DNA from: Desulfobacterales bacterium
GTDB taxonomy: Bacteria > Desulfobacterota > Desulfobacteria > Desulfobacterales > UBA5852
DNA length: 42,231 nucleotides
Assembly: GCA_050124295.1 (NCBI GenBank)
Contig: JASFFM010000001.1
Coordinates: forward strand, 1-42,231
Direction: 5' to 3'
A program made the translations under genes and the position numbers. Positions 13,987 through 32,422 of the stretch are shown piece after piece (within the stretch, counting starts at the first letter, position 1; every line of letters starts with the position of its first letter). Below the pieces are notes generated by a model. It had not been told where the DNA came from and did not search any database. It saw only the letters and a list, made by a program, of their open reading frames with translations.

Positions 13987-13988
13987 GC

Positions 13989-15359: not shown

Positions 15360-15393
15360 CCCTCTGAAGGGCAACGCCAAAGCAGGTAGCATT

Positions 15394-16266: not shown

Positions 16267-16267
16267 G

Positions 16268-17494: not shown

Positions 17495-17579
17495 CCGGCA
17501 TGACAAATTAGCCGACGGTCATCGATGGCATCGTGCCGACCGCCGGTTCAAACCATCCAATCGGATAGAGGGGGGAACT

Positions 17580-18764
17580 ATGTTTACTTATGTCGACAAT
17601 GAAAATTCCGCCAAGATCAAAGTTATCGGCGTTGGCGGCGCCGGCGGAAACGCCATCAACAACATGATTTCATCCAATCTCCAGGGGGTGAAATTTATCG
17701 CCGCCAACACCGACGCCCAGGCCCTGGAAGTATCCAAAGCACCGATTAAAATTCAATTGGGTGAGCGACTGACAGAGGGTCTGGGCGCCGGCGCCAATCC
17801 GGATGTCGGCCGGGAGGCGGCCATCGAAACCACCGATGCGATCCGCAGTGCCCTGGAAGGCAGCCACATGGTGTTCATCACGGCCGGCCTGGGCGGCGGG
17901 ACCGGTACAGGCGCAGCCCCGGTGATTGGTGAAATCTGTAAGGAGTTGGGCATCCTGACCGTGGCAGTGGTTTCCAAACCGTTTTCGTTCGAGGGCAAGA
18001 AACGCTCCCTCCAGGCCGATATGGGCCTGGAGAGCCTCAAACAAACGGCCGATACGGCCATAACCATCAACAACGACCGCCTGCGCGGCCTGGCCTCCAA
18101 AAAAGCCACCATGCTGGAGATGTTCCGGCGGGCCGACGAGGTGCTGCTGCATTCCGTCAAAGGCATCACGGATTTGATCATGATGCCGGGTCTGGTGAAC
18201 CTCGATTTTGCCGATGTCAAGGCCACCATGTCCAAAGCCGGCATGGCCATCATGGGCATCGGAACGGCCAGCGGCGAAAACCGGGCCGTGGAAGCCGCCG
18301 AACGGGCCATCTCCCATCCGCTGCTGGAAGACGTTTCCATCACCGGCGCCACCGGGGTTCTGATGAACATCACGAGCACCAGCGAGCTGACCATGGAAGA
18401 AATGACCGAAGCCTCGGACCGCATCTACAATGAAGTCGGCGAAGATGCCGATATCATCTGGGGTACGGTGGTGGACGACAGCCTGGGGGATGAGATGCGC
18501 GTGACGGTCATCGCCACCGGCATCGGGGGCAGCGCTCCCCAGGAAACCCCCGTCAAGATCGTCGATGAAACCTACGGCGGTAAGCTGCGCCCGGTTACGG
18601 TGAACGACCTCGGCCATGTCGAGGACTACGAAGAGCCGGCTTTCATGCGGCGGCGCAAGGTGGCCGGTGGATCCATGGGATCGCACCTGGGCGGTTTCGA
18701 GAGCGACGCCGTTGATGAGAGCGATCTGGATGTACCGACCTTTCTGCGGCGCAAGGCCGATTAG
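17580..18764 (+). CDS. ftsZ: Cell division GTPase FtsZ
   Basis: IKVIGVGGAGGNAINNM, tubulin signature GGGTGTGAAPVI, conserved C-terminal peptide DLDVPTFLRRKAD. The ATG at 17580 is preceded by GAGGGGGGA. Confidence 0.97.
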   Translation: MFTYVDNENSAKIKVIGVGGAGGNAINNMISSNLQGVKFIAANTDAQALEVSKAPIKIQLGERLTEGLGAGANPDVGREAAIETTDAIRSALEGSHMVFITAGLGGGTGTGAAPVIGEICKELGILTVAVVSKPFSFEGKKRSLQADMGLESLKQTADTAITINNDRLRGLASKKATMLEMFRRADEVLLHSVKGITDLIMMPGLVNLDFADVKATMSKAGMAIMGIGTASGENRAVEAAERAISHPLLEDVSITGATGVLMNITSTSELTMEEMTEASDRIYNEVGEDADIIWGTVVDDSLGDEMRVTVIATGIGGSAPQETPVKIVDETYGGKLRPVTVNDLGHVEDYEEPAFMRRRKVAGGSMGSHLGGFESDAVDESDLDVPTFLRRKAD

Positions 18765-18968
18765 CAGACGCATTGACTCCCCGGGACGTCGTGCCGGGCA
18801 ACCCCGGTGCTACGCTGGCTGTCGACCTCGGACAGCATTGACTTTCGACCGGCAGCCGTTATCCTGAACCATTGGTATTGCCACCTCCGGTGCCAGGCGG
18901 TCCCCCCCCGCACAGGCACCGGACCCGCCGCGAAAGACCGGCCGCGGCGTTCCGGGAAGTCAGGCCCT

Positions 18969-20675: not shown

Positions 20676-20792
20676 TGGCGCCCCTTTGACATGCGGCTTG
20701 CAACCCAGCCTTAATCAGGGCACACCCATCAAAAAAGGTCCCTCGCTGACCCGCGTTTTTTTATAACCCGTTGTTATCGTCCAGATTTCCGA

Positions 20793-20822
20793 TTGACCGA
20801 TTTTTTAGCTCACGAATATTTT
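20793..20822 (+). promoter_or_regulatory. Candidate sigma70-type promoter of the cytochrome c/rnf operon (TTGACC-18 nt-TATTTT)
   Basis: TTGACC at 20793-20798 and TATTTT at 20817-20822, in an AT-rich stretch of the 275-bp intergenic region upstream of the cytochrome gene. Confidence 0.4.
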
Positions 20823-20950
20823 TTGGAATGGCGTAATTTTTCGAGTTAAAAAAAGCACTTGCCTCAAAGCGACCCCTTGTGGTAGTTGAATTATTCCAGT
20901 TTGCCGCGCCAGTGCACCTCTTAACCCACAATTTAAGGAACGGATTGCCG

Positions 20951-21388
20951 ATGACTTCTAAGAGAGAGTTGAAGCTGATCTACAGCGTGGCTGTCATTCT
21001 CTTTGTGGTTGGTCTTTTCTGTTACGCCGCTTTCCCCTCCAAACCTCCGGACGAGCCCGTCCGAATCCAGTATCGCAGTGCTACCGGCAACGTCCTCTTC
21101 GAACATAGTAAACATGCCGCCGACTACGGCGTCGACTGCTATGATTGCCATCATCATCCCGGCGATGATGAGGCGGGGCTGGTGGCCTGCAGTGAATGTC
21201 ACCTTAAGAACCCGGAAGAAAACGCCCCACCACCCGAAATCTGCCTGGACTGCCATGGGGAAGATGAAATTGAAGATACCGAAATGCTGTCCCAACCCGA
21301 TGCATCCCACAATCAGTGCGCGGAGTGCCACGACGGAATTGGGGCCGGCCCGCTAAAACAAGCCTGTTCGGAATGCCATCTCCAATAG
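20951..21388 (+). CDS. Membrane-anchored pentaheme c-type cytochrome (Rnf-associated)
   Basis: Five CxxCH motifs (CYDCH, CSECH, CLDCH, CAECH, CSECH) within about 90 aa. N-terminal hydrophobic anchor or signal (LIYSVAVILFVVGLFCYAAF). The ATG at 20951 follows AAGGAA. Confidence 0.9.
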   Translation: MTSKRELKLIYSVAVILFVVGLFCYAAFPSKPPDEPVRIQYRSATGNVLFEHSKHAADYGVDCYDCHHHPGDDEAGLVACSECHLKNPEENAPPPEICLDCHGEDEIEDTEMLSQPDASHNQCAECHDGIGAGPLKQACSECHLQ

Positions 21389-21451
21389 TTTGGGAACAGA
21401 TCTGGCAATTACCCCGGTGTTTCGCCGTCTTGCGTTCAGAAGGGTCAGATT

Positions 21452-22735
21452 ATGATCAACAATGTATTCAGCCGTTCAGCCAGTGAAACCATCCACTACG
21501 AGCTGCTTCATCAAACCCCGCAGGGCCTGCAGCACATCACCAGTGCCGAGACCGCCGTTCTTCTCATTGAAGAAAAACTCGAACGCCAGTCCCAGCTGGC
21601 CTTGAAAGTCGGTGATAGCGTGCAAACGGGTCAAAAGATAGTACCCTTTAGCGACCGCCCGGCCTATGCGATTTCGAGCGTAACCGGCACCGTGGCGGCC
21701 ATCCGGCCCATGAACGGTGATTTCGGCAAGCATTTCACGGCCATCGATATTTCCCTGGCGGAGGCCGAAATTGTGGCGGAAGGCCCGGGCGAGATGGAAC
21801 CGACCCTGGCCAATCTCACCGGATGGCTGGCCGGCGCCCCCGGAAATCCGCCCCTGCATCTTTTCGCTGCCGTTGATCACGGCATCCACACCCTGGTCGT
21901 GGCCGGTGTCGATGCCGACCTTCTGGTGGCCACCAACCAGTTTGTCATCAAATCGGAACTAGAGGCCGTCAACCGGGGCATTGATGTTTTAAAAAGCGCC
22001 ACCGGCGTCGACCAGGTGGCCATCGCCGTGCCCCGTGATCTGGTGCAGGGGTTCGGCCATACCGGCGCCAGCGAACTCAAGGCGGTAGCGCCCGATTATC
22101 CGGCCGCCAATCCCAAATTGATCATCTACGAGGCCTTCGGCCGGGAAATCCCGGCCGGGAAATCATGTGAAGACATGGGCTTTGCCTTTTTCAGCGCCGA
22201 AGCGGTGGCTTCCATCGGCAAGGCTTTTGCCACCGGCCGGGTTCCCCATGAAAAAACCATTACCCTGGTGGACAAAAACGGCCGCAAAACCATCCTCTCG
22301 GCCCGTATCGGCACACCCATCGCGGATGTTCTGGCCGCCCACGGGATCGAAACGGGCAGCATGGACCGCCTGGTCACGGGCGGCCCCATGACCGGCATGG
22401 CCATCTTCGACGAGCAGATGCCGATCAAGGCCGACACCGACGCTATCCTGGTGCAGGACGCCAGCGACGTATCCCTGGTCTCCGATTATCCCTGTATCAA
22501 TTGCGGGGAATGTGTTCGGGCCTGTCCCACCCGGGTGCCGGTCAACATGCTGGTGCGCTTTCTGGAAGCCGGCCAATACGAGGAAGGTGCCGACCTTTAC
22601 GACCTTTATTCCTGCGTTGATTGCGGCTTATGCAGTTTCGTATGCGTGGCCCGCATTCCCATCTTTCAATATATCAAACTGGCCAAATACGAACTTTCCC
22701 GACTGACGGCAGCGGAGGCCTCGAATGAGCAGTAA
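21452..22735 (+). CDS. rnfC: Rnf complex subunit C (divergent; NADH/FMN motifs degenerate)
   Basis: RnfC_N-like LKVGDSVQTGQKI, LVTGGPMTGMAI, and two ferredoxin motifs (CINCGECVRACP and CVDCGLCSFVC). Position ahead of rnfDGEAB. Confidence 0.85.
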   Translation: MINNVFSRSASETIHYELLHQTPQGLQHITSAETAVLLIEEKLERQSQLALKVGDSVQTGQKIVPFSDRPAYAISSVTGTVAAIRPMNGDFGKHFTAIDISLAEAEIVAEGPGEMEPTLANLTGWLAGAPGNPPLHLFAAVDHGIHTLVVAGVDADLLVATNQFVIKSELEAVNRGIDVLKSATGVDQVAIAVPRDLVQGFGHTGASELKAVAPDYPAANPKLIIYEAFGREIPAGKSCEDMGFAFFSAEAVASIGKAFATGRVPHEKTITLVDKNGRKTILSARIGTPIADVLAAHGIETGSMDRLVTGGPMTGMAIFDEQMPIKADTDAILVQDASDVSLVSDYPCINCGECVRACPTRVPVNMLVRFLEAGQYEEGADLYDLYSCVDCGLCSFVCVARIPIFQYIKLAKYELSRLTAAEASNEQ

Positions 22736-23684
22736 AAAAAAGTTCATCGTCTCGCATGCGCCCTTCTGGCATAACGGCAGCAATGTTGCCGAAAGGCACT
22801 ACGGCATGCTGCTGGCCGCCATGCCGGCCGTGGCATTGGGCATCGTGTACTATGGTTTTCCCGCCGTGGCGGTCATCGCCCTATCGATCTCCAGCGCTAT
22901 TTTCTGGGAATGGCTGATGTGCCGGTTCACCAAACGTACCATGACCGTCGGCGATGGCAACGCCGCCCTGCTGGGTCTGCTGTTTGCCATGCTGATCCCG
23001 GCCACCACGCCCTGGTGGGTGGTGCTCACGGGGACCCTCCTGACGATGGTTATCGGCCTGCACATTTTCGGCGGTATTGGCAGCAACCCCTTTCATCCGG
23101 TGGCCGTGGCCATGATGATGCTGACCGTCTCCTGGGCCGAATTTATGGATTTCAACGCCGCCCTGGTCAACTATGATTTCGCGTTCAATGCTGTGTATCC
23201 GCTGAGCCTCTCCAAAAACCTCGGCACGGCTGCCGTCGCTGATTTTACAACGCTCAACCTTCTGCTGGGCAGGCAAGTGGGCGGCATCGGCAGTACTTTC
23301 GGACTCGGTCTTATCGGGGGCGGGCTCTATTTGATGGCCAAAGGCTATATCCGCTGGGAAATCAGCCTGTCTTTTCTGGGCGGCATTTTTCTATCGGCAC
23401 TCGCTTTTCACCTGGCGGCGCCGGCCCAGTACGCCGGCCCCATGTTTCATCTGCTGACAGGGTACACCCTGATCGGCGCCTTTTTCCTCCTGCCGGAGAG
23501 CGCTTCTTCGCCGGTCAATCCGATCCCCATGGTGATTTACGGGGCCGGGGCCGCTATTATGACCATGCTGATTCGCAATATCGGTATGTATCATGACGGT
23601 GTTTTGCTGGCTGTGCTGTTGATGAATCTCGTTAATCCACTGCTGGACAAAATCAGACCGCAGGCTTTGGGAAAGGTGGCTTAA
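22725..23684 (+). CDS. rnfD: Rnf complex subunit D (NqrB/RnfD family, divergent)
   Basis: Polytopic membrane protein with SHAPFWHNG, FGGIGSNPFHP, HLLTGYTLIGAFFLL and NLVNPLLDK segments colinear with RnfD/RsxD. 11-nt overlap with rnfC. Confidence 0.88.
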   Translation: MSSKKKFIVSHAPFWHNGSNVAERHYGMLLAAMPAVALGIVYYGFPAVAVIALSISSAIFWEWLMCRFTKRTMTVGDGNAALLGLLFAMLIPATTPWWVVLTGTLLTMVIGLHIFGGIGSNPFHPVAVAMMMLTVSWAEFMDFNAALVNYDFAFNAVYPLSLSKNLGTAAVADFTTLNLLLGRQVGGIGSTFGLGLIGGGLYLMAKGYIRWEISLSFLGGIFLSALAFHLAAPAQYAGPMFHLLTGYTLIGAFFLLPESASSPVNPIPMVIYGAGAAIMTMLIRNIGMYHDGVLLAVLLMNLVNPLLDKIRPQALGKVA

Positions 23685-23685
23685 C

Positions 23686-24264
23686 ATGGGTGAAATGATC
23701 AAGATGGTTGTCGTGCTGACCTTTCTGAGTTCGCTATCGGGCGGGGTGCTGGCCTACGTGAAAGAGGGTACCAGAGAACAAATCGACATGCAGGTTTTAC
23801 AATTGGTCAAGGGGCCGGCCATCAAAACCATTTTCAAGGATGCCACCAACGACCCGGTGGCCGATCGCTTCAGTATCGAAGAGGATGGGAGTAAATACGA
23901 CATGTTCGTTGCCAAGGTGGACGGCAAGGACATGGTCGCCTTTGAAACCTTTGGCAAGGGCTATGGTGGCGATATCGGCCTGGTGGTCGCCTTCGACGTG
24001 GCCGAGGACAAGATTTACGGGGTCGGTGTGACCACGCTCAGCGAAACGGCCGGGCTGGGCTCCAAAGCCAAAGAGGACCCCAAATTTGCGGCCCAGTTCG
24101 CCGGTGTCGATGCCAAAGGGCCGATTGAGGTCGGCAATCCGATCAATGCTTTGAGCGGGGCCACGATCACCTCGCGGGCGGTCTGTTCGGCGGCCACCGA
24201 TGCGGGCGCCGTCTATGAACGGCTGAAACCCCAGATCGAAAAACAACTGCAAGCTTTTAAATAA
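23686..24264 (+). CDS. rnfG: Rnf complex subunit G (FMN_bind domain)
   Basis: N-terminal TM helix, GYGGDIGLVVAF, and an intact flavinylation motif LSGATITSRAV. Confidence 0.9.
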   Translation: MGEMIKMVVVLTFLSSLSGGVLAYVKEGTREQIDMQVLQLVKGPAIKTIFKDATNDPVADRFSIEEDGSKYDMFVAKVDGKDMVAFETFGKGYGGDIGLVVAFDVAEDKIYGVGVTTLSETAGLGSKAKEDPKFAAQFAGVDAKGPIEVGNPINALSGATITSRAVCSAATDAGAVYERLKPQIEKQLQAFK

Positions 24265-24277
24265 CAGGGAGAGCCCC

Positions 24278-24907
24278 ATGGCGAAATCGATCACGCATGA
24301 ATTTGTTAAGGGTCTATGGGAAGAGGTTCCCCCGTTCCGGCTGGTTTTGGGGCTCTGCCCCGTTCTGGGGGTTACCACCAAGATGCAGTTCGGCATCGGC
24401 ATGGGATTGGCCACGACCTTCGTTCTGGTTTTTGCCAATTTTCTGGTTTCCCTGCTAAGAAAGGTCATCCCGGCCAAAGTCCGTATCGCCTGCTTCATTA
24501 TCATTATCGCGACCTTCGTGATCCTGGTGGAACTGCTGATGCAGGCGTATGCCTACAAACTGTTTCTCGACCTGGGGCTTTTCATTCCCTTGATCGTGGT
24601 AAACTGCATCGTCCTGGGCCGCGCCGAAGCCTTCGCCTCCAAAAACGGCCTGTTCCTTTCGATTGCCGACGGACTGGGCATCGGCATCGGTTTTACCCTC
24701 TCCCTGGCAGCCCTTGGCGGTCTGCGTGAAATATTGGGGGCCGGCACCCTGACCGTTTGGGGCGCTCCCCTCTTCGATGGTCCCATTCTGAACATCGCCA
24801 ATTATTTTCCTGGATTCCGGCCATTCGAATTCATGGTTCAAGCCCCCGGCGCCTTCGTCTGCCTGGGCATCATGCTGTGCTTCATGAATATGGTGGGCAA
24901 AAAATAG
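24278..24907 (+). CDS. rnfE: Rnf complex subunit E
   Basis: GLCPVLGVTTKMQFGIGMGLATTFVL...VRIACFIIIIATFV, typical RnfE/NqrD. Confidence 0.92.
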   Translation: MAKSITHEFVKGLWEEVPPFRLVLGLCPVLGVTTKMQFGIGMGLATTFVLVFANFLVSLLRKVIPAKVRIACFIIIIATFVILVELLMQAYAYKLFLDLGLFIPLIVVNCIVLGRAEAFASKNGLFLSIADGLGIGIGFTLSLAALGGLREILGAGTLTVWGAPLFDGPILNIANYFPGFRPFEFMVQAPGAFVCLGIMLCFMNMVGKK

Positions 24908-24917
24908 GAGATTCCCC

Positions 24918-25493
24918 ATGGGCGACTATTTCACCCTGATCATCAGTTGTATCTTCGTCAACAACATCCTCCTGGCGCAATTTCTGGGGAACTGCCCCTT
25001 TTTCGGGACCTCCAAAAAAATGGAAACAGCCGTGGGCATGGCCATGGCGGTTGTCTTTGTCCTGGTCATGGCCGGTGTGATCACCTGGCTGATTTATACC
25101 TACTTACTCGCCGAATTGGGGCTCACTTACCTTCGCACCATCGCCTTCATTCTGGTGATCGCCTCCCTGGTGCAGTTCGTGGAGATGTTCCTGAAAAAAA
25201 GTATTCCTGCGCTGTATGCCGGCCTGGGGATCTTCCTGCCGCTGATTACGACCAATTGCGCCGTTTTTGGCGCCTGCGTCATCAATATCGACAAGGAATA
25301 TTCCTTCATGCAGGCATTGGTGGCTTCGTTCAGTTTCGCCGTGGGTTTCGGTCTGGCGCTGATTCTGTTCGCCGGCGTGCGGGAACGCATTCTGCTGGCC
25401 CGGGTGCCTCGCCCCCTGCAGGATACCTCCATCGCCCTGGTGACGGCCGGGATTATTTCCCTGTCTTTCTATGCGTTCAAGGGTATGGTATAA
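24918..25493 (+). CDS. rnfA: Rnf complex subunit A
   Basis: IFVNNILLAQFLGNCPFFGTSKKMETAVGMAMAVVFV, typical RnfA/NqrE. AGGAGA RBS. Confidence 0.92.
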   Translation: MGDYFTLIISCIFVNNILLAQFLGNCPFFGTSKKMETAVGMAMAVVFVLVMAGVITWLIYTYLLAELGLTYLRTIAFILVIASLVQFVEMFLKKSIPALYAGLGIFLPLITTNCAVFGACVINIDKEYSFMQALVASFSFAVGFGLALILFAGVRERILLARVPRPLQDTSIALVTAGIISLSFYAFKGMV

Positions 25494-25666
25494 TCGGAAT
25501 TAAAAGGCCGCCGGGGGCTGCTGAAGCAGCTACCGATGAGATGAAGCGGCCGCCATCGATCAAAAAATGATGAATAACCAAATCTGCTATCTTCCCCATG
25601 CAACCCTGCATTCTGCTTCTCTTCTCGATGGGTTTCCATTCGAATGCATTCCCCAAGGAGATCGCC

Positions 25667-27766
25667 GTGCTTGATCCTGTCGTCATTTCCGTCATGGCCT
25701 TAATGGGCATTGGGGCCACTTGCGGCCTGGTGCTCAGTGTGGCCTCGAAAGTGTTCTATGTTTACGAAGATCCGCGCATCGCCCAGGTCGAATATTTTTT
25801 TGCCGGTGCCAATTGCGGCGGTTGCGGTTATGCCGGCTGTTCTTCGGCCGCCGTGGCCGTGGTCAACGGCAACGCCCCGCCCGGGGTTTGCATCGTGGCC
25901 GGAATGGAGTCCGCCGTGTCTGTCGCCGAGGTGATGGGCGTCGATCCGGGCAGTGCCGAGCCCCTGATGTCCAAAAACGAATGTTCCGGCGGCGAGCGTG
26001 CCGAAAACCATTATGTCTATAACGGTGTCAACAGCTGTCAGGCCCTGGCCGCGCTTTATGGCGGACACAAAATCTGCTCCATCGGCTGTCTCGGGCAGGG
26101 CGACTGCATCAAGGCCTGCCGGTTCAACGCCGTGCACATGGGCCCCAACGGCTTCCCGGTCGTGGACGAGGCCATGTGCGTCGGCTGCGGGGCCTGTGAA
26201 AAAGCCTGTCCCAAGAACATCATCCGTGTGCGCACCATGTCCGAGCGCCTGCTGCACTTCAACCAGGAAGACGACGCCCTGGCGCCCTGCCAGCAGACCT
26301 GCCCGGCGGAAATCGACATCCCACGCTATATCCGCCAGATTAAAGAAGGCGATTACGAAGGTGCCGTGCACACCATACGGGAGCGCAATCCGCTTCTGCT
26401 GACCTGCGGCCGGGTTTGTCCCCATCCCTGTGAAGACAAGTGCCGCCGCGGCATTGAAGATGAAGCCGTATCCATCAATCAACTGAAGCGCTTTGTGGCT
26501 GACTATGAAATGAACTCGGGCAGCCGTCTGCCCATCGCCTGTGCGCCGGATACCGGTAAACGGGTCGCCGTCATCGGTGGCGGACCGGCCGGGCTGAGTT
26601 GCGCCTATTTCCTGCGCCGGCTGGGCCACGGCGTCAAGATTTACGACATGATGCCCAGGCTGGGCGGGATGACCCGCTACGGGATTCCCGAATACCGGCT
26701 CCCCAAGGAAGTCCTGCAATGGGAAACCGATGGCATCTTGAACCTGGGCATTGAATTCCAGGGCGGCGTTCGCCTGGGGCAGGATTACACCGTTGGTGCC
26801 CTGCGTGATGAAGGCTTTGACGCGATCTTTATGGGCGTTGGTGCCTGGAAGGATTACAAGCTGCGGGCCGAGGGCGAAGACCTCAAGGGCTGCTATACCG
26901 GCATCGATTTTCTTACCCGTTTTGCCAGCCACCAGCAGGGCGATGACCCGGATGAGGTTCCGGTGGGCAAAAAATGCGTCGTCATCGGTGGCGGCAATAC
27001 CGCCATCGACTGCGTGCGCACCCTCATCCGCTTGGGCGCCGATGAAGTCTCCATCGTCTATCGCCGCACCCGCAAGGAGATGCCGGCCAACGCGGTGGAG
27101 ATCGAAGCCGCCGAACACGAGGGGGTTCAATTTCACTTTCTGGCCGCACCGGTAAAAGCCATCGGCGATGCCAAGGGGTATGTCAAGCAACTGGAATACC
27201 TCAAGATGGAGTTGGGCGAACCCGACGCCAGCGGACGCCGGCGGCCGGTGCCGATCGAAGGTTCGGAAACCCTGATGGACATCGACATGCTGATCACGGC
27301 CATCGGCCAGGGACCGGATGTCTCTTTTCTGGAAAAAGAGGCCGCCATCAAGGATCTGGAAATCACCCGCTGGAGCACCATCGAGGCCGATCCGGAAACG
27401 CTCCAGACCAATATCCCCTACGTTTTTGCCGCTGGCGACGCCCAGACCGGCGCCTCCCTCGTGGTGGAAGCCATTGGCGGGGGTCGTCGGGCGGCGCGGG
27501 CCATCCACCTTTATCTGAATGACGAAGACGTGACCCCCGTTCCCAAGTCCTTGCGCAAAAAACACATCCCCGAATCCCTCTTCGAAACGGTGGCCGGCAT
27601 CACACCCATCAAACGCACCCCCATGCCGGAGATGCCGGTGGAGGAACGCATCAAAACGTTCGAGGAAGCGGATCTCGTGATCAATGAGACCGATGCCGGA
27701 CGCGAATCCAATCGCTGCCTGAATTGCTGCCGCATTTGTTACGACAAGGACGCCTGCGCGGCCTAA
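25667..27766 (+). CDS. rnfB: RnfB fused to a GltD/NfnB-like FAD- and NAD(P)H-binding iron-sulfur oxidoreductase
   Basis: N-terminal half: TM helix, CGGCGYAGC FeS domain, and two 4Fe-4S ferredoxin motifs (CSIGCLGQGDCIKAC, CVGCGACEKACP). C-terminal half: CQQTCP...CGRVCPHPCEDKC (GltD Fer4_20-like), VAVIGGGPAGLSCA (FAD) and VVIGGGNTAIDCVRT (NAD(P)H). It ends in a Cys-rich tail, CLNCCRICYDKDAC. I prefer the GTG start at 25667 because of AAGGAG 6 nt upstream. The upstream in-frame ATG at 25598 is an alternative. Confidence 0.85.
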   Translation: MLDPVVISVMALMGIGATCGLVLSVASKVFYVYEDPRIAQVEYFFAGANCGGCGYAGCSSAAVAVVNGNAPPGVCIVAGMESAVSVAEVMGVDPGSAEPLMSKNECSGGERAENHYVYNGVNSCQALAALYGGHKICSIGCLGQGDCIKACRFNAVHMGPNGFPVVDEAMCVGCGACEKACPKNIIRVRTMSERLLHFNQEDDALAPCQQTCPAEIDIPRYIRQIKEGDYEGAVHTIRERNPLLLTCGRVCPHPCEDKCRRGIEDEAVSINQLKRFVADYEMNSGSRLPIACAPDTGKRVAVIGGGPAGLSCAYFLRRLGHGVKIYDMMPRLGGMTRYGIPEYRLPKEVLQWETDGILNLGIEFQGGVRLGQDYTVGALRDEGFDAIFMGVGAWKDYKLRAEGEDLKGCYTGIDFLTRFASHQQGDDPDEVPVGKKCVVIGGGNTAIDCVRTLIRLGADEVSIVYRRTRKEMPANAVEIEAAEHEGVQFHFLAAPVKAIGDAKGYVKQLEYLKMELGEPDASGRRRPVPIEGSETLMDIDMLITAIGQGPDVSFLEKEAAIKDLEITRWSTIEADPETLQTNIPYVFAAGDAQTGASLVVEAIGGGRRAARAIHLYLNDEDVTPVPKSLRKKHIPESLFETVAGITPIKRTPMPEMPVEERIKTFEEADLVINETDAGRESNRCLNCCRICYDKDACAA

Positions 27767-27811
27767 AACGGCCCAAGACTTGCGGCCACCACATCTGGCG
27801 ACAATCCAATC

Positions 27812-27849
27812 AAAGCCCTGGGATCTTTGCGATACCAGGGCTTTTCATT
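27812..27849 (+). terminator. Probable intrinsic terminator of the rnf operon
   Basis: 10-bp stem AAAGCCCTGG/CCAGGGCTTT with a 13-nt loop, followed by a T-rich tail. It lies 45 nt after the rnfB stop. Confidence 0.6.
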
Positions 27850-28072
27850 GGATAGCGCCAGCCACGGCGCCGCTTCACCGCTCGGGGGCCGTGCCCGGTA
27901 ACGTCACCGCCGTCGGTGATCGTGATCGCGATAAGAGGTCGCGATGGGAACATCTTCGCGGGGGCATCCATCCTTGAGGAGGCGACCTCACCGCTGCCGA
28001 ACGAGCACGTATCAAGAAAGGCATCACGCGCGAGGCACCTCCGGCGGGGCGGGAGGCCATCGTCCGGATTTT

Positions 28073-29050
28073 TCAGGGATCCCGGGTTTCACGCAACCCA
28101 TCGAGCAGGACCAGCATATCCTCGGGCATTGGGGCTTCGAATTGCACCCATTGATCGCTTCCCGGATGGATAAACCCCAAACGCCAGGCATGCAGCATCT
28201 GTCGGTGGGCCTTGATAGGGCTTTTGGGGCCTTCTCCCGACCCACGCTCAACCACCATATGATGACGCCCCCCATAGAGCTTGTCACCGATCACAGGATG
28301 GTGCAGGGCAGCACAATGCACCCGTATCTGATGGGTACGACCGGTTTTGAGATCCAGCTCCAGCAAGGTCGCCCCCTGGAATGCGGCTTTGACCGTGTAG
28401 TGGGTTTCGGCCGCACGCGTCTTGGTGGCCACCGTCGACATCTGTTTGCGTGCGGTCGGATGACGCCCGATGGGTAAACGGATTTCGCCCCGGGAAGTCT
28501 TCATGGTGCCGCGCACAATGGCCAGATAGGTCTTGCGGACGCGTCGGTTTTTGAACTGCGCGGCCAAGTGTTCGTGGACAGCGGGTTTTTTGGCGATCAC
28601 CATCACGCCGGAGGTATCCTTGTCGAGGCGGTGCACGATACCCGGGCGAATTTCGCCCCCAAATGCCGCCAGGTCGCGGCAGTGGTGCAACAATCCGTTG
28701 ACCAGTGTGCCGGACGGATGCCCCGGGGCGGGATGAACCACGAGACCGGGCGGCTTGTTGATCACGATCAGAGCGGCGTCTTCGAAAAGGATATGGAGAT
28801 CGATAGGTTCCGGCTGGATTTCGGAAAGGGTCGGTTCCGGCAGACGCCCGGAGATCTCATCGTCCAGACGAACCCGGTAGGAGGGCTTTACCGGCGCATG
28901 ATTGACCTGGACGAGCCGCTGCTGAATGATTTGGGCGGCGTAGGAGCGCGAGCAGTCTTCCAGATAGCCGGATAGGATGACATCCAGCCGCAACCCACAC
29001 TGTGACTCCTGAGCCGTGAAGGCAAAACCGCGGGATGGTGGACGATCCAT
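28073..29050 (-). CDS. rluD: 23S rRNA pseudouridine synthase, RluA/RluD family
   Basis: N-terminal S4-like domain (LRLDVILS...) and catalytic motif HRLDKDTSGVMVIAKK, then HQIRVH. Confidence 0.9.
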   Translation of the reverse strand: MDRPPSRGFAFTAQESQCGLRLDVILSGYLEDCSRSYAAQIIQQRLVQVNHAPVKPSYRVRLDDEISGRLPEPTLSEIQPEPIDLHILFEDAALIVINKPPGLVVHPAPGHPSGTLVNGLLHHCRDLAAFGGEIRPGIVHRLDKDTSGVMVIAKKPAVHEHLAAQFKNRRVRKTYLAIVRGTMKTSRGEIRLPIGRHPTARKQMSTVATKTRAAETHYTVKAAFQGATLLELDLKTGRTHQIRVHCAALHHPVIGDKLYGGRHHMVVERGSGEGPKSPIKAHRQMLHAWRLGFIHPGSDQWVQFEAPMPEDMLVLLDGLRETRDP

Positions 29051-29754: not shown

Positions 29755-31767
29755 TTACATCAGGAAGGGTACCATCAGCAGCGCGACGACGTTCAGGATC
29801 TTGATCATCGGGTTGACAGCCGGTCCGGCGGTGTCTTTGTAGGGGTCGCCTACGGTATCGCCGGTGACGGCGGCCTTGTGAGCATCGCTGCCCTTGCCGC
29901 CCAGATGGCCGTCTTCGATGTATTTCTTGGCGTTATCCCAGGCCGCGCCCCCCGTGGTCATGGAAAGCGCCACGAACACGCCGGTAACGATGGAGCCGAT
30001 CAGCAGACCGCCCAAGGCGATCTTGCCCAGGAAAAAACCCACCAGCAGCGGGGCGATAACCGGCAGAATGGCCGGCACCAGCATTTCCTTCAAGGCAAAC
30101 TTGGTCACGATGTCCACGCAGGCACCGTAATCCGGTTTGGCCGTACCTTCCATGATCCCGGGGATCTCGCGGAACTGACGACGAACCTCATCCACCACGG
30201 CGCCGCCGGCATTGCCAACGGCCTTCATGGCGATGGAGGCAAACAGGTAGGGCAACAAACCACCAATGAAAAGACCGATGATGACGTTGACATCCGAAAG
30301 GTCGAAGGCCATGGCTTCCTTGCCGCCGCCTCGCATCTGGAATTCCATCACGTAAGCGGCGAAAAGCACCAGGGCGGCCAAGCCGGCGGAACCAATCGCG
30401 TAACCCTTGGTGACCGCTTTGGTGGTGTTGCCAACCGCATCCAGGGGATCGGTCACGGCGCGCACGCTCTCGTCCATTTCGGCCATCTCGGCGATACCGC
30501 CGGCATTGTCCGTAATGGGACCGTAGGCATCGATGGCGATCACCATACCGGTCATGGAAAGCATGGAAATGGCGGCCATGGCGATGCCGTAGAGACCGCC
30601 AAACTGGTGGGCCAGCAGAATAGCCAAACAGATGGCCAGCACCGGCGCTGCGGTGGCCTGCATGGAAACCGCCAGACCGGAAATGATGTTGGTACCGTGA
30701 CCGGTGGTGGACGCTTCGGCGATGGCCTTAACCGGCCCGTAGATCCCGGTGTAGTATTCGGTGATGATAACGATCACGACCGTCAGCACCAGCCCGATCA
30801 GGGTGCAGTAGTAGATGTTCATGGCGGAGATGTCGGGGATGTTGCCCATGAACTTCATGGTGGCAAAATAGAAGACGATCCCGGCTAGAATGGCGGAGCC
30901 GAACATGCCCTTGTAGAGTGCGCCCATGATGTAGCCGCCCGAGCCCAGGCGAACGAAAAATACGGCAATCATGGAGGCGATGATCGAAATAGCACCCAGA
31001 ACCAACGGGAATTCAGTCGCCATGGGGATTTTCGGGAACAGCAGGTGTCCGATGAGCATGGCGGCCACGGCCGTCACGGCATAGGTCTCGAAGAGATCGG
31101 CGGCCATACCGGCGCAGTCACCCACGTTATCGCCCACGTTGTCGGCGATGGTGGCCGGGTTGCGGGGGTCGTCTTCCGGGATACCGGCTTCGACCTTACC
31201 CACCAGGTCCGCGCCGACGTCCGCACCCTTGGTGAAGATACCACCGCCCAGACGGGCAAAGATCGAAATCAGGCTGCCACCGAAACCGAGGGCAACCAGG
31301 GCCACGACGTCATGGGTCAGGGTGTAGTAACCCGCCACCGAGGTCAGGGCCAGGCCCGCCACGATCATCCCGGTCACGGAGCCACCCTTGAAAGCCATGG
31401 AAAGACCGGCGGCCATGCCCTTTTTGGCGGCTTCCGCCGTGCGGACGTTGGCCAAAACGGAGACCCGCATGCCGATGTATCCCGCCAAGAAGGACGCCAC
31501 CGCGCCCACGAGAAAACCGATGGCGGTTTTGGCACCCATGGTCGCAAAAATAACACCAAAAATGATAATGCCCGCAATCCCCATGCTTTTCATCTGGCGA
31601 TTGAGATAGGCGATCGCACCTTCCTGGATGGCGCCGGCGATCGACTGCATTTTTTCGTTTCCAGCCGGTGCGCCTTTTACAATCGCGGCCAGAATGATGG
31701 CAAACAAAATACCGGATACGCCTACGAGCGTACATGTCAGCGGCAGATTATTGAATACTGCGTCCAT
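29755..31767 (-). CDS. hppA: Membrane-bound proton-translocating pyrophosphatase (K+-independent type)
   Basis: [57 protein letters not shown] prefer the ATG at 31767 because the minus strand reads GGAGGAAAGA-ATG. The in-frame ATG at 31779 is an alternative. Confidence 0.95.
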
Positions 31768-32422
31768 TCTTTCCTCCATCAGAAGTTTCGGGTGAATTCT
31801 TGGTTGTGCGATGAAACCTGTTCATACCGACTTTCGCCCCGTGGCAAAGGACGGTCTCTGCGGCATCACAGGCTCGGGCGAACACCGCATCCAGCATCTC
31901 CTTTTCCGGTGTGCTGAACGGTCCCAGTACGTGATCGATGACATCACTTCCGCGAGCCGGACGCCCGATGCCGATACGTAAACGGGCAAATTCTCCGCTG
32001 CCCAGGGCATCCATAACTGATTTCAAACCGTTGTGGCCTCCATGCCCTCCTTTCTCTTTTATTTTTATGCGTCCAAAAGCAAGATCAATATCGTCATGAA
32101 TGATCAATACGTCCTTTAGGGAGATACCGTAATAAGACATCAGGCGCAAGACAGGCGGCCCGCTGCGGTTCATAAATGCCTGGGGGGCGACGAGAACCAC
32201 GGCCCGATCTGCAATGACACCCAAACCGTAACAACTGTCGAAACGACAATCCGTCAGCGAGATACCATGATCTCGACCGAATCGCTCCAGAACCCGAAAG
32301 CCCGCATTGTGCCGGGTTTGTTGATAGGCCTCCCCCGGATTGCCCAGCCCCACGAGCATAAACTGGGGTTTCGGGCCTCTGCGCAGGCGCGAGATCCATC
32401 GCCGTACAAACTGCCCCAACAC
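31748..32422 (-). CDS. pth: Peptidyl-tRNA hydrolase
   Basis: [20 protein letters not shown] and HGGHNGLKS motifs. The start is uncertain: GTG at 32422 after GAGG, ATG at 32359, or TTG at 32485. The 3' end overlaps the hppA start out of frame. Confidence 0.88.

What the first reader, a model, noticed from the sequence alone, without database searches (positions are those of the whole stretch)
25667..27766. RnfB fused in-frame to a GltD/NfnB/SudA-like FAD-NAD(P)H oxidoreductase
A single roughly 700-aa ORF holds two modules. The first is the RnfB set: TM anchor, CGGCGYAGC FeS domain, and two CxxCxxCxxxCP ferredoxin motifs. From about nt 26279 the second follows: CQQTCP...CGRVCPHPCEDKC, VAVIGGGPAGLSCA, YGIPEYRLPK, VVIGGGNTAIDCVRT and AAGDAQTG, the complete signature of the glutamate synthase small-subunit family, which includes the bifurcating NfnB. 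There is no stop or frame change between the two halves. RnfB is normally the ferredoxin-facing subunit, so this fusion would wire a pyridine-nucleotide flavoenzyme directly into the Rnf electron path.
Basis: seen in the sequence. Interest (0 to 1): 0.7.

Follow-up and report, generated by a model that had tools for sequence, protein, structure and literature searches.

The report
Rnf complex with NADPH-flavoenzyme-fused RnfB
The RnfB gene fused to a glutamate-synthase-type NADPH flavoenzyme is real and conserved, but it is the already published "Rnf2" membrane redox complex of marine sulfate-reducing Desulfobacteraceae, whose actual reaction is still unproven.

Summary
One 699-aa ORF (GTG 25667 to stop 27766) carries an RnfB N-terminus: a TM helix, the CGGCGYAGC cluster and a 2x[4Fe-4S] domain. 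A complete Fer4_20 + FAD/NAD(P)H module follows. It is the last gene of a cytochrome c-rnfCDGEAB operon.

The fusion is not an artefact. It recurs at 68-92% identity in at least 267 Desulfobacterales genomes, isolates included, always with the same gene order.

It is not new. The ~700-aa NAD-binding RnfB, with an RnfC lacking the NADH/FMN domain, was published as the "Desulfobacula toluolica Tol2-type" or "Rnf2" complex (PMC5109826; PMC11887813). It belongs to the Desulfobacteraceae core genome and is constitutively abundant.

My additions are sequence-level only:
- The module is closest to the non-bifurcating NADPH entry modules of StnC/NfnABC (Lys ligand, NADPH-type YRR).
- Like those, it is circularly permuted relative to NfnB.
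- RnfC has lost the FMN/NADH motifs but keeps both clusters.
- RnfD has Tyr where FMN is normally attached, the substitution that removes FMN from Vibrio NqrB-T236Y.

Best reading: NADPH enters on the RnfB side, as in Nqr. The canonical NAD+ exit is disabled. Electrons probably leave through RnfG to the co-encoded pentahaem cytochrome.

The parts
20879..21388 (+). Membrane-anchored pentahaem cytochrome c and first gene of the operon. The true start is probably the ATG at 20951.
   Evidence: It has five CxxCH motifs (aa 87, 104, 122, 147, 163) after a hydrophobic N-terminal helix. Pfam gives Cytochrom_CIII at 32.4 bits. A homologue precedes rnfC in 64 of 80 related loci, and 53 of the 64 have 5 haem motifs.
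21452..22735 (+). RnfC-like subunit. The RnfC/NqrA fold and both [4Fe-4S] motifs are kept, but the NuoF-type FMN/NADH motifs are lost.
   Evidence: Complex1_51K scores only 29.1 bits, below the gathering score of 31.2, and there is no SLBB hit. TIGR01945 scores 180.8 against a cutoff of 246. In alignment to 8ahx_C and 9eri_C, GGAxFP becomes AGAPGNPP (nt 21827-21853), NGxECEPYLT becomes AGVDADLLVATN (21902-21937) and YPxGxxKQLI becomes YPAANPKLII. The same holds in 64 orthologues. CINCGECVRACP and CVDCGLCSFVC are invariant. The AF2 model (pLDDT 76) best matches RnfC (TM 0.65-0.67), then NqrA (0.51-0.56).
22725..23684 (+). RnfD membrane subunit with Tyr158 (nt 23196-23198) at the position of the threonine that carries covalent FMN in canonical RnfD and NqrB.
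   Evidence: HMMER alignments place window 'AVYPL' on 'TATPL' of 7zc6_D and 9eri_D, and on 'SGAYAL' of 9ud3_B, which is the NqrB-T236Y mutant. The A. woodii FMN site is Thr156. T236Y removes the NqrB FMN. In 69 orthologues the residue is Y 46, D 10, A 5, F 4, H 2 and 2 not listed; Thr and Ser are not among the five commonest. P159, L160 and K164 are invariant or nearly so.
23686..24264 (+). RnfG, the periplasmic FMN subunit. Its covalent-FMN motif SGAT (aa 157-160, nt 24154-24165) is retained.
   Evidence: NF045876 (RnfG_DVU2794) scores 226 bits, above its cutoff of 205. SGAT is present in 66 of 70 orthologues.
24278..24907 (+). RnfE membrane subunit.
   Evidence: TIGR01948 scores 235.5 bits, above its cutoff of 213.4. 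tblastn identity across loci is mostly 60-94%.
24918..25493 (+). RnfA membrane subunit.
   Evidence: TIGR01943 scores 248.6 bits, above its cutoff of 229.3. It is the most conserved of the membrane subunits, at 74-96% identity.
25667..27766 (+). The RnfB-GltD-type fusion protein itself (699 aa).
   Evidence: It is conserved full-length in the 80 loci kept and in the 120 clusters listed.
25676..26212 (+). RnfB part. It comprises the TM helix (aa 4-32), the [4Fe-4S] 'FeS' domain (C50, C53, C58, C75), the interface segment with C106 and C124, and the 2x[4Fe-4S] ferredoxin domain (C137-C151 and C171-C181).
   Evidence: It aligns to C. tetanomorphum RnfB 7zc6_B residues 4-195 (E 6e-49) and A. woodii 9eri_B residues 1-190. 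All listed Cys are 100% conserved in 81 sequences. The distal polyferredoxin domain of clostridial and A. woodii RnfB is absent; the flavoenzyme follows instead.
26282..26536 (+). Fer4_20 (two [4Fe-4S]) part of the flavoenzyme module. It includes Lys274 (INQLKRF) at the position of the StnC K170 cluster ligand.
   Evidence: Pfam Fer4_20 scores 85.6 bits. The residue mapping to StnC K170, and to Glu126 in NfnB, comes from my residue count on the alignment. This is the most conserved region of the protein, at 88% mean identity. K274 is invariant.
26537..27526 (+). FAD and NAD(P)H Rossmann domains. FAD site: GGGPAG (aa 304-309). Arg344 lies in YGIPEYRLPK. Nucleotide site: GGGNTA (aa 441-446). The 2'-phosphate-type motif is VYRRTRKEMPA (aa 464-474).
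   Evidence: Pyr_redox_2 scores 112 bits. The region aligns to 9n5u_A, 9bov_A, 8oh5_C, 5jca_L and 4ylf_B. R466 and R467 align with NfnB R324/R325, and R325 is named as an NADP(H) contact. All these residues are invariant in 34 sequences.
27614..27739 (+). C-terminal tail, aa 650-691 (RTPMPEMPVEERIKTFEE...ESNRCLNCCRIC). It is a circularly permuted copy of the N-terminal segment of NfnB/GltD and supplies Cys684/Cys687 to the Fer4_20 clusters. Cys688 and Cys691 are also invariant.
   Evidence: HMMER aligns this tail to residues 8-45 of P. furiosus NfnB (5jca_L) and 4-42 of T. maritima NfnB (4ylf_B). It occupies the same C-terminal place in StnC and in the NfnABC NfnA subunit. C684, C687, C688 and C691 are 100% conserved.

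Best explanation
This is the 'Rnf2' (Desulfobacula toluolica Tol2-type) Rnf complex of Desulfobacteraceae. Here it sits on a contig of an uncultured Desulfobacterales genome.

Shown from sequence:
- RnfB keeps its membrane anchor, its proximal [4Fe-4S] cluster and one 2x[4Fe-4S] ferredoxin domain.
- Its distal end is a StnC/NfnB-family module holding FAD, an NADPH-type nucleotide site and two [4Fe-4S] clusters.
- RnfC has lost the NuoF-type FMN/NADH motifs but keeps two [4Fe-4S] clusters.
- RnfD lacks the threonine that carries covalent FMN.
- RnfG keeps its covalent-FMN motif.
- A membrane-anchored pentahaem cytochrome c is always co-encoded.

Inferred mechanism:
1. NADPH delivers a hydride to the FAD.
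2. Electrons pass one at a time down the FeS chain of RnfB to the RnfA/E centre.
3. They reach the periplasmic FMN of RnfG. In A. woodii Rnf this is the Na+-translocating step.
4. The canonical return path (RnfD-FMN, then RnfC-FMN, then NAD+) is disabled.
5. Electrons therefore leave to an acceptor more positive than NADPH. The most likely acceptor is the operon's cytochrome c, passing on to Qrc, menaquinone and sulfate reduction.

The wiring thus parallels Na+-NQR, where the NAD(P)H dehydrogenase sits at the RnfB position and the RnfC homologue is degenerate. The complex may also run in reverse.
For: Identity as Rnf2:
- Domain scans.
- The literature describes exactly this architecture: an RnfB of about 700 aa with an NAD-binding domain, an RnfC lacking NuoF/SLBB domains, and a cytochrome in the cluster. 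It is in the core genome and constitutively formed.
- Gene order cytc-rnfCDGEAB is conserved in every related locus with enough flank.

NADPH entry module:
- The best solved homologues are the T. sibiricus and C. saccharolyticus NfnABC NfnA subunits and S. ovata StnC (E 1e-124 to 1e-111). About 42-52% identity to this large-protein class is seen.
- In StnC this domain binds NADPH and passes electrons sequentially into an FeS chain without bifurcating.
- The window has the StnC-type Lys ligand, the conserved Arg, the YRR motif and the same circular permutation.

Disabled NAD+ exit:
- RnfC motif loss is seen in 64 orthologues. The NuoF-like region averages 50% identity to the window sequence, against 77% for the FeS domain.
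- RnfD has Tyr158 in place of the FMN-bearing Thr. That position is variable (Y/D/A/F/H) across 69 orthologues. The engineered T236Y change removes FMN from NqrB and interrupts electron flow.

Polarity:
- In both Rnf and Nqr, the input module sits at RnfAE/NqrDE and the output at RnfD/NqrB.
- Na+ release is coupled to electron transfer from the RnfA/E cluster to RnfG-FMN.

Precedent for a cytochrome exit:
- M. acetivorans Rnf does not use NAD(P). RnfG is proposed to donate to a co-transcribed cytochrome c.
Against: - No biochemistry exists for this complex. Everything beyond cofactor motifs is inference.
- NADPH rather than NADH specificity rests on homology. The published descriptions say NAD+/NADH.
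- The two RnfC [4Fe-4S] motifs are invariant and its FeS domain is highly conserved. RnfC is therefore probably still redox-active, and a pure 'exit at RnfG' model does not explain that.
- A non-covalently bound flavin in RnfD cannot be excluded.
- In D. alaskensis G20, which has a different Rnf type, the operon cytochrome DhcA is dispensable where Rnf is essential.
- The Rnf2-associated cytochrome was detected only in lactate-grown D. multivorans.
- The potential drop from NADPH to c3-type haems may be small.
- Short RnfB proteins without a distal polyferredoxin still react with ferredoxin or flavodoxin (own knowledge). Ferredoxin may therefore still dock on this RnfB.
- The AF2 model of the fusion was poor (pLDDT 60), so cluster-to-cluster geometry is untested.
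Confidence: 0.45

Rival explanations
1. This is the published working model. Ferredoxin remains the main donor at RnfB. The fused domain is an additional NAD(H)-interacting site. Electrons from Fd, and perhaps NADH, drive Na+ export and also reduce the operon cytochrome c3, which feeds Qrc and menaquinone.
For: It is proposed in the Sci Adv 2025 supplement and in Dörries 2016. The RnfB ferredoxin domain and proximal cluster are intact and invariant. Short RnfB/RsxB proteins with only these domains still work with Fd or flavodoxin (own knowledge).
Against: The distal domain where A. woodii Fd is thought to dock (clusters B1-B2) is the part replaced by the flavoenzyme. The nucleotide motif is the NADPH type, not the NADH type. 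The model overlaps largely with the best explanation; it differs mainly in which donor dominates.
Confidence: 0.25
2. Flipped Fd:NADP+ oxidoreductase. Ferredoxin docks on the FeS domain of the FMN-less RnfC. Electrons cross the complex in the reverse sense and reduce NADP+ at the RnfB-fused flavoenzyme.
For: RnfC keeps two invariant [4Fe-4S] clusters but has no flavin or NADH site, so it needs a one-electron partner. RnfB now carries the only nicotinamide site in the operon.
Against: By homology with both Rnf and Nqr, electron flow from the RnfC side to the RnfB side is coupled to Na+ import. Exergonic Fd-to-NADP+ transfer would then dissipate the ion gradient rather than build it. This step is inference. 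Loss of the RnfD FMN site would also break the route between RnfC and RnfG.
Confidence: 0.1
3. The fused module works by itself, either as a membrane-tethered, non-pumping ferredoxin:NADP+ oxidoreductase or as an NfnB-like bifurcating/confurcating flavin. Electrons pass directly between the RnfB ferredoxin domain and the FAD.
For: Stand-alone NfnB-like proteins (Fer4_20 + Pyr_redox_2) show Fd:NADP+ oxidoreductase activity. The family includes the bifurcating NfnB, and the FAD-proximal Arg is conserved.
Against: The ligand next to the FAD-proximal cluster is the StnC-type Lys, not the NfnB Glu. StnC's FAD is non-bifurcating. No NfnA-like [2Fe-2S]/FAD partner is encoded in the operon or the window. 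The module is always fused to a membrane-anchored RnfB, next to strongly conserved RnfA, RnfE and RnfG (74-96% identity for RnfA). That is hard to reconcile with a function independent of the pump.
Confidence: 0.08
4. The fusion is an assembly or sequencing artefact: a lost stop codon or frameshift between rnfB and a neighbouring gltD-like gene.
For: None beyond the general possibility in a metagenome-assembled contig.
Against: The same full-length architecture appears in the 120 clusters listed and the 80 loci kept, out of 267 genomes with a relative. These include closed isolate genomes. At least 7 clusters at 50% identity share it. The linker is conserved. The proteins were detected in proteomes of cultured strains.
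Confidence: 0.005

Closest known systems
Rnf2, or 'Desulfobacula toluolica Tol2-type' Rnf complex of Desulfobacteraceae (Wöhlbrand et al. 2016, Proteomics, as cited in PMC5109826; Dörries et al. 2016, PMC5109826; Sci Adv 2025, PMC11887813)
   Same: Everything that defines it is shared: an RnfB of about 700 aa with FeS domains plus a pyridine-nucleotide oxidoreductase domain, an RnfC without recognisable NuoF/FMN and SLBB domains, a cytochrome c gene in the cluster, and Desulfobacterales origin. The window's proteins are 68-92% (RnfB) and 41-85% (RnfC) identical to orthologues, including those of Desulfosarcina variabilis and Desulfonema magnum.
   Different: Nothing categorical. This is an orthologue from an uncultured relative. 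The papers describe the extra domain as NAD+/NADH-binding and call the other subunits 'very similar' to canonical ones. Here the motif is NADPH-type and RnfD lacks the FMN-attachment Thr.
GltD-like NADPH module of StnC (Sporomusa ovata StnABC, 8oh5_C) and of the NfnA subunit of NfnABC/Bfu enzymes (9bov_A, 9n5u_A)
   Same: These are the best solved homologues, with E-values of 1e-111 to 1e-124 over aa 205-716 of the 722-aa ORF translated from ATG 25598 (about 182-693 in 699-aa numbering). About 42-52% identity to this large-protein class is seen. Shared features are the same circular permutation (the CxxC-bearing segment lies after the Rossmann domains), a Lys at the StnC K170 position, the Arg, and the YRR NADPH motif.
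   Different: There the module is inserted into a soluble NuoG/FdhF-like subunit that feeds a HydBC-type bifurcating module. Here it is fused to the C-terminus of a membrane-anchored RnfB and feeds an ion pump.
Na+-translocating NADH:quinone oxidoreductase (Na+-NQR: NqrF and NqrA)
   Same: The functional layout matches. A flavin-dependent NAD(P)H dehydrogenase with FeS sits at the RnfB/NqrF position next to RnfAE/NqrDE, and the RnfC/NqrA subunit has lost its NADH/FMN site. The window RnfC still gives a sub-threshold hit to NqrA models (80.5 bits full length, 57.6 bits without the FeS domain) and folds like RnfC/NqrA.
   Different: The dehydrogenase is GltD/NfnB-type, not FNR-type, and it is added to RnfB rather than replacing it. 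RnfC keeps both [4Fe-4S] clusters, whereas NqrA has none. RnfD lacks the covalent-FMN Thr that NqrB has. The NqrB Gly140-Gly141 pair linked to quinone binding reads Ala-Ile here (my reading of the alignment). This is convergence, not membership.
Methanosarcina acetivorans Rnf with its co-transcribed multihaem cytochrome c (MmcA)
   Same: A multihaem cytochrome c gene is co-transcribed with the rnf genes. The complex does not use NAD(P) at RnfC, and RnfG is proposed to pass electrons to the cytochrome. The identical gene order, cytochrome-rnfCDGEAB, is from my own knowledge.
   Different: The archaeal RnfB is a plain polyferredoxin that takes electrons from Fd and has no flavoenzyme fusion. The acceptor there is methanophenazine.
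Canonical Rnf (A. woodii 9eri, C. tetanomorphum 7zc6, A. vinelandii 8ahx)
   Same: All six subunits are homologous. The RnfB N-terminal 190 residues align end to end, and the RnfG FMN site and RnfA/E are conserved.
   Different: Canonical RnfB ends in ferredoxin domains. Canonical RnfC binds FMN and NADH. Canonical RnfD carries covalent FMN on Thr. No cytochrome is encoded.
NfnAB (NfnB/NfnL, 5jca_L, 4ylf_B), the bifurcating transhydrogenase
   Same: Same fold and cofactor set: FAD, NADPH and two [4Fe-4S] clusters, with E about 1e-99.
   Different: There is no NfnA partner. The cluster ligand is Lys instead of Glu. The N-terminal segment is permuted to the C-terminus.

Membership tests
RnfB (TIGR01944 / PRK07118 family) | N-terminal membrane helix followed by the CX2CX4CX16C 'FeS' domain (PF04060) | tested here: met
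   PF04060 scores 35.8 bits, above its gathering score of 23. C50, C53, C58 and C75 are invariant. A helix at aa 4-32 is predicted. The segment aligns to 7zc6_B and 9eri_B from residue 1-5.
RnfB (TIGR01944 / PRK07118 family) | 2x[4Fe-4S] ferredoxin domain, and a family HMM score above the curated cutoff | tested here: met
   TIGR01944 scores 74.1 against a cutoff of 68.7. Fer4 hits fall at aa 163-210 of the 722-aa ORF translated from ATG 25598. The longer PRK07118 equivalog models score below their cutoffs because the distal domain is replaced.
RnfB (TIGR01944 / PRK07118 family) | Encoded in an rnfCDGEAB operon | tested here: met
   The order is conserved in the related loci.
GltD / NfnB / DPD-N family (Fer4_20 + Pyr_redox_2) | Fer4_20 domain with the ligands for two [4Fe-4S] clusters | tested here: met
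   Fer4_20 scores 85.6 bits against 25.8. C208, C212, C247, C251, C255, C259, C684 and C687 are all invariant, as is Lys274. The CxxC pair comes from the permuted C-terminal tail.
GltD / NfnB / DPD-N family (Fer4_20 + Pyr_redox_2) | FAD GxGxxG and NAD(P)H GxGxxA Rossmann motifs | tested here: met
   GGGPAG (aa 304-309) and GGGNTA (aa 441-446) are invariant. Pyr_redox_2 scores 112 bits.
GltD / NfnB / DPD-N family (Fer4_20 + Pyr_redox_2) | NADPH rather than NADH specificity | tested here: inconclusive
   The YRR(T)RxEMPA motif is identical in type to NADPH-using NfnB, StnC and NfnABC. R467 aligns with NfnB R325, an NADP(H) contact.
Bifurcating NfnAB | NfnA partner subunit ([2Fe-2S] + FAD, NAD+ site) encoded alongside | tested here: not met
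   No such gene lies in the operon or anywhere in the 42-kb window. The rest of the genome could not be checked.
Bifurcating NfnAB | Glu ligand (P. furiosus Glu126) on the FAD-proximal cluster | tested here: not met
   The window has Lys274, as in non-bifurcating StnC K170.
Rnf2 / Tol2-type Rnf complex of Desulfobacteraceae | RnfB of about 700 aa with a pyridine-nucleotide oxidoreductase domain C-terminal to the FeS domains | tested here: met
   The protein is 699 aa.
Rnf2 / Tol2-type Rnf complex of Desulfobacteraceae | RnfC lacking the NADH-ubiquinone oxidoreductase (NuoF) FMN domain and the soluble-ligand-binding domain | tested here: met
   Complex1_51K is below threshold and there is no SLBB hit. 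Motifs are replaced in 64 orthologues. PGAP names it only a '4Fe-4S dicluster domain-containing protein'.
Rnf2 / Tol2-type Rnf complex of Desulfobacteraceae | Cytochrome c gene in the cluster, and Desulfobacteraceae/Desulfobacterales host | tested here: met
   A pentahaem cytochrome lies at 20879-21388. The nearest genomes are all Desulfobacterales.
Canonical Fd:NAD+ Rnf | FMN/NADH site in RnfC (GGAxFP, NGxECEP, YPxGxE/AKQLI motifs) | tested here: not met
Canonical Fd:NAD+ Rnf | Covalent FMN on a conserved Thr of RnfD (TATPL; A. woodii Thr156) | tested here: not met
   Tyr158 in the window. Across 69 orthologues the residue is Y/D/A/F/H, and Thr and Ser are not among the five commonest.
Canonical Fd:NAD+ Rnf | Covalent FMN on Thr of RnfG (SGAT) | tested here: met
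   SGAT lies at aa 157-160 and is present in 66 of 70 orthologues.
Na+-NQR | NqrF (2Fe-2S ferredoxin + FNR-like FAD/NADH domain) in place of RnfB; NqrA without any cofactor | tested here: not met
   The dehydrogenase is GltD-type and fused to an intact RnfB. RnfC keeps two [4Fe-4S] motifs. NqrA models score far below their cutoffs.
Na+-NQR | NqrB quinone-site Gly140-Gly141 and FMN-bearing Thr236 | tested here: not met
   The aligned residues are Ala-Ile and Tyr (my residue count on the alignment).

The most novel reading that the evidence does not exclude
Rnf2 may be a third functional class of the Rnf/Nqr superfamily: an NADPH-oxidising, ion-translocating complex that arose by a donor switch independent of Nqr. 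In this reading:
- A StnC-type NADPH module is fused onto RnfB.
- The cytoplasmic return half of the U-shaped electron path is decommissioned: RnfD has no covalent FMN and RnfC has no FMN/NADH site.
- Electrons are ejected from RnfG-FMN to a membrane-anchored pentahaem cytochrome c in the periplasm.
- NADPH from complete substrate oxidation would thereby link to sulfate respiration and build a Na+ gradient.

The still-invariant RnfC clusters would then serve a so far unknown second partner.
Probability: 0.3. Interest if true: 0.75.

Novelty: already known. Interest (0 to 1): 0.35.

Why it matters
Desulfobacteraceae carry out a large share of carbon mineralisation in marine sediments. Rnf2 is in their core genome and is abundantly and constitutively made, yet its substrates, direction and ion coupling have never been measured.

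If the complex oxidises NADPH at the RnfB side and no longer reduces NAD+ at RnfC, current metabolic models that treat it as an A. woodii-like Fd:NAD+ pump are wrong in both donor and acceptor. The energy budget of complete-oxidising sulfate reducers would then need revision.

It would also be a second, independent example, after Na+-NQR, of the Rnf core being re-plumbed for a nicotinamide donor. That is informative about how modular redox pumps evolve.

For annotation, relatives are variously labelled. Names seen are 'FAD-dependent oxidoreductase', 'formate dehydrogenase (NADP+) beta subunit', 'homotetrameric NADPH-dependent glutamate synthase' and RnfB subunit. The RnfC-like gene is called a '4Fe-4S dicluster domain-containing protein' by NCBI.

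Tried and rejected
- AlphaFold2 of the fusion with 34 homologues gave a poor model (mean pLDDT 60, with FeS regions and the tail below 50). I could not test whether C106, C124, C688 and C691 form a bridging cluster, or measure cluster spacing. I therefore did not run a fold search on that model.
- The promoter/terminator scan of 20500-28200 gave nothing above shuffled expectation that helps define the operon.
- I looked for a second, canonical rnf cluster in the 80 fetched loci, to compare RnfD/RnfC paralogues within one genome. None lay within the flanks.
Whether the Thr-to-Tyr change is specific to the fused type is untested beyond the three solved Rnf structures and NqrB.
- Wöhlbrand 2016 (Proteomics) and Pereira 2011 are not held. 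I rely on how later papers cite them.
- The 2025 RNF/NQR review does not mention this variant.
- Artefact reading: considered and rejected, see rivals.
- NfnB-type bifurcation: considered and rejected on ligand identity and the missing partner.
- Simple 'flipped' Fd:NADP+ model: considered and rejected on coupling polarity.
- ATG 25598 as start codon: rejected, because orthologues have in-frame stops upstream and a conserved AAGGAG-GTG.
- ORF 27944-28477 (+): it has no Pfam hit and overlaps rluD on the other strand, so I treated it as spurious.

Full report
**1. Observation**

The window holds an uninterrupted ORF ending at 27766. An AAGGAG ribosome-binding site lies about 6 nt upstream. In orthologues the frame running from the upstream ATG (25598) contains stop codons, while the AAGGAG-GTG arrangement is conserved. 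The product is 699 aa.

Every quoted motif is present. The one correction is that only one ferredoxin motif is a strict CxxCxxCxxxCP (aa 171-182). The other is the RnfB-typical Cx3Cx5Cx3C (aa 137-151).

Pfam places these domains, all above their gathering scores:
- FeS (PF04060)
- a 2x[4Fe-4S] domain
- Fer4_20 (85.6 bits)
- Pyr_redox_2 (112 bits)

NCBIfam gives rnfB TIGR01944 above its cutoff for the N-terminus. For residues 226-721 of the 722-aa ORF translated from ATG 25598 it gives PRK12771/PRK12814-type 'NAD(P)-binding / glutamate synthase small subunit-like' models.

**2. Context**

The gene is the last of an operon:

| Gene | Coordinates |
|---|---|
| cytochrome c (five CxxCH, N-terminal membrane anchor) | 20879-21388 |
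| rnfC | 21452-22735 |
| rnfD | 22725-23684 |
| rnfG | 23686-24264 |
| rnfE | 24278-24907 |
| rnfA | 24918-25493 |
| rnfB fusion | 25667-27766 |

Upstream lies a dcw cell-division cluster ending in ftsA-ftsZ, followed by a B12-radical-SAM gene. Downstream, on the other strand, are rluD and a membrane pyrophosphatase, then pth, L25, prs and ispE. The RnfC protein is 100% identical to one recorded on a 42,231-bp contig of a Desulfobacterales MAG. The window is thus most likely that whole contig.

**3. The fusion is real and widespread**

- The protein search lists 120 clusters of about 695 aa at 72-92% identity.
- A scan of one genome per species found 267 genomes with a relative. The 80 best are all near-full-length fusions from Desulfobacterales. 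They include closed genomes of Desulfosarcina alkanivorans, D. variabilis, D. widdelii and Desulfonema magnum.
- In every locus with enough flank the order cytc-rnfCDGEA-rnfB(fused) is kept.
- A search of 50%-identity representatives found at least seven divergent clusters (38-67% identity) with the same full-length architecture. Where named, all are Desulfobacterales.

An assembly artefact is excluded.

**4. It is already described**

Dörries et al. 2016 (PMC5109826) describe a 'D. toluolica Tol2-type' Rnf. [quoted passage not shown] They credit Wöhlbrand et al. 2016 and note that the mode of action awaits verification. D. multivorans has both an A. woodii-type rnf1 and this rnf2 with a cytochrome gene, and makes both.

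The 2025 Sci Adv study (PMC11887813) adds the following:
- Rnf2 is placed in the Desulfobacteraceae core genome.
- It is abundant and constitutive in six strains.
- It also occurs in Desulfarculus baarsii and D. salexigens.
- The authors propose that Fd, and maybe NADH, is oxidised while the cytochrome c3 is reduced and passes electrons to Qrc.

The finding is therefore a correct rediscovery. A 2025 RNF/NQR review does not mention the variant. I found no biochemical or structural study of it.

**5. What kind of flavoenzyme module it is**

The closest solved structures are not NfnB itself. They are the GltD-like domains of three proteins (E 1e-124 to 1e-111):
- Thermococcus sibiricus NfnABC NfnA (9n5u_A)
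- Caldicellulosiruptor NfnABC (9bov_A)
- Sporomusa ovata StnC (8oh5_C)

P. furiosus and T. maritima NfnB come next (about 1e-99), then GltD and DPD. About 42-52% identity to this large-protein class (1000-1270 aa) is seen.

In StnC this domain binds FAD and NADPH and passes electrons sequentially into a chain of clusters. Its FAD is not the bifurcating flavin, and the FAD-proximal cluster has a Lys ligand (K170) where NfnB has Glu.

Counting through the alignments, the window has:
- Lys274 at that position (INQLKRF)
- Arg344 at the StnC R239 / NfnB R201 position
- VYRRTRKEMPA at the NfnB R324/R325 position, R325 being an NADP(H) contact

All are invariant in 34 homologues.

The C-terminal tail (aa 650-691...EERIKTFEE...ESNRCLNC) aligns to the N-terminal 40 residues of NfnB. 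The module is therefore circularly permuted exactly as in StnC and NfnA. Cys684 and Cys687 complete the Fer4_20 clusters. The tail is not an extra domain.

Cys688 and Cys691 are also invariant. So are Cys106 and Cys124 in the RnfB segment that helps bind an extra cluster in C. tetanomorphum RnfB. These four may form a cluster bridging the two halves, but I could not test this.

**6. The partner subunits have changed too**

*RnfC.* Against A. vinelandii and A. woodii RnfC, the NuoF-type motifs are replaced as follows:
- GGAxFP by AGAPGNPP
- NG(A/S)ECEPYLT by (A/C)GVDADLLVATN
- YPxGxxKQLI by YPAA(N/L)P(K/R)LI

The same holds in 64 orthologues, while both [4Fe-4S] motifs are invariant. The N-terminal and NuoF-like regions average 40% and 50% identity to the window sequence, against 77% for the FeS domain. 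An AF2 model (pLDDT 76) still matches RnfC (TM 0.65-0.67), then NqrA (0.51-0.56).

*RnfD.* The threonine that carries covalent FMN is 'TATPL' in C. tetanomorphum and A. woodii (Thr156 in A. woodii) and Thr236 in V. cholerae NqrB. In the window it is Tyr158 (AVYPL). The best-matching NqrB chain in the PDB is the engineered T236Y mutant 9UD3. That mutation removes the NqrB FMN and interrupts electron flow. Across 69 orthologues the position reads Y 46, D 10, A 5, F 4, H 2 and 2 not listed. Thr and Ser are not among the five commonest residues, and the flanking P, L and K are invariant or nearly so.

*RnfG.* It keeps its SGAT FMN site in 66 of 70 orthologues.

I did not find the RnfD change mentioned in the papers I could read. 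The Sci Adv supplement calls the other subunits 'very similar'.

**7. Mechanism**

*Shown:* the cofactor-binding motifs listed above and their conservation.

*From established knowledge:*
- In both Rnf and Nqr the electron input module sits next to RnfAE/NqrDE and the output next to RnfD/NqrB.
- In A. woodii Rnf, Na+ uptake and release are coupled to reduction of the RnfA/E cluster and its oxidation by RnfG-FMN.
- Nqr arose from Rnf by placing an NADH dehydrogenase at the input side while RnfC decayed into cofactor-less NqrA.

*Inferred:* Rnf2 has undergone an analogous but independent donor switch.
1. NADPH reduces the FAD on RnfB.
2. Electrons run through the Fer4_20 and RnfB clusters to RnfA/E and RnfG, with ion translocation.
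3. They cannot complete the canonical path, because RnfD lacks FMN and RnfC lacks FMN/NADH.
4. They must therefore go to an acceptor more positive than NADPH.

The always co-encoded, membrane-anchored pentahaem cytochrome is the obvious candidate. This is as proposed in the literature and as in Methanosarcina, where Rnf ignores NAD(P) and RnfG is thought to reduce a co-transcribed cytochrome.

A 'flipped' Fd(RnfC)-to-NADP+(RnfB) enzyme is unlikely. With the conserved core, that direction should be coupled to ion import.

A self-contained NfnB-like bifurcation is unlikely for two reasons: the Lys ligand and the missing NfnA partner.

*Open problems:*
- The invariant RnfC clusters imply a redox role that I cannot assign.
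- Ferredoxin may still dock on RnfB.
- NADPH specificity is inferred only.
- In D. alaskensis the operon cytochrome is dispensable.
- The fusion's AF2 model was too poor to check geometry.

**8. Verdict**

The feature is an already known kind, and this is an orthologue of it.

Residual interest lies in the unresolved mechanism of a complex central to marine sulfate reducers. It also lies in the sequence-level refinements made here, all of which give direct experimental predictions:
- a StnC-type, NADPH-type, permuted module
- an RnfD without the FMN threonine
- a quantified decay of RnfC

Noticed in passing
window 22725-23684 (RnfD), codon 23196-23198: RnfD has Tyr at the position of the threonine that carries covalent FMN in canonical RnfD and NqrB. 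This is the same substitution as the engineered V. cholerae NqrB-T236Y mutant, which lacks FMN. The residue is variable (Y/D/A/F/H) across 69 orthologues. I did not find this mentioned in the Rnf2 papers I could read.
   Followed up: yes
window 27614-27739 (RnfB aa 650-691): The C-terminal tail of the fusion aligns to the N-terminal 40 residues of NfnB, which is a circular permutation shared with StnC and the NfnABC NfnA subunit. The invariant Cys688/Cys691, together with the invariant Cys106/Cys124 of the RnfB part, could form an extra bridging cluster. This is untested.
   Followed up: partly
window 28073-29050 (-) and 29755-31779 (-): An rluD-like pseudouridine synthase and a membrane-bound pyrophosphatase (H_PPase, 863 bits) follow rnfB on the opposite strand. 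The same two genes follow the rnf2 operon in 46-48 of the 80 related loci. The neighbourhood with another ion pump is therefore conserved.
   Followed up: partly
window 18807-20675 (+): A B12-binding radical SAM protein of the uncharacterised TIGR03960 family lies between ftsZ and the cytochrome/rnf operon. It scores 445 bits, just under the cutoff of 462. The ftsZ-rSAM-cytc-rnf order is kept only in the closer relatives (24 loci).
   Followed up: no
window 3114-18764 (+): A complete dcw cell-wall and division cluster runs rsmH, ftsI, murE, murF, mraY, murD, (ftsW), murG, murC, (murB), (ftsA), ftsZ; the genes in brackets were placed by position and not scanned. The 829-aa ORF at 11497-13986 carries MurG domains only in its C-terminal half. 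Its long N-terminal extension overlaps the likely ftsW frame and is probably not translated.
   Followed up: no
database annotations of relatives: Relatives of the fusion are variously named 'FAD-dependent oxidoreductase', 'formate dehydrogenase (NADP+) beta subunit', 'homotetrameric NADPH-dependent glutamate synthase' or RnfB subunit. The RnfC-like gene is called '4Fe-4S dicluster domain-containing protein' by NCBI, though JGI names it RnfC. Automatic annotation therefore often hides the rnf membership.
   Followed up: partly
window 27944-28477 (+): A 177-aa ORF just after rnfB has no Pfam hit and overlaps rluD on the other strand, so it is probably not a gene. No rnfF/apbE-like flavin transferase gene follows rnfB here, unlike the D. 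alaskensis rnfCDGEABF operon.
   Followed up: partly
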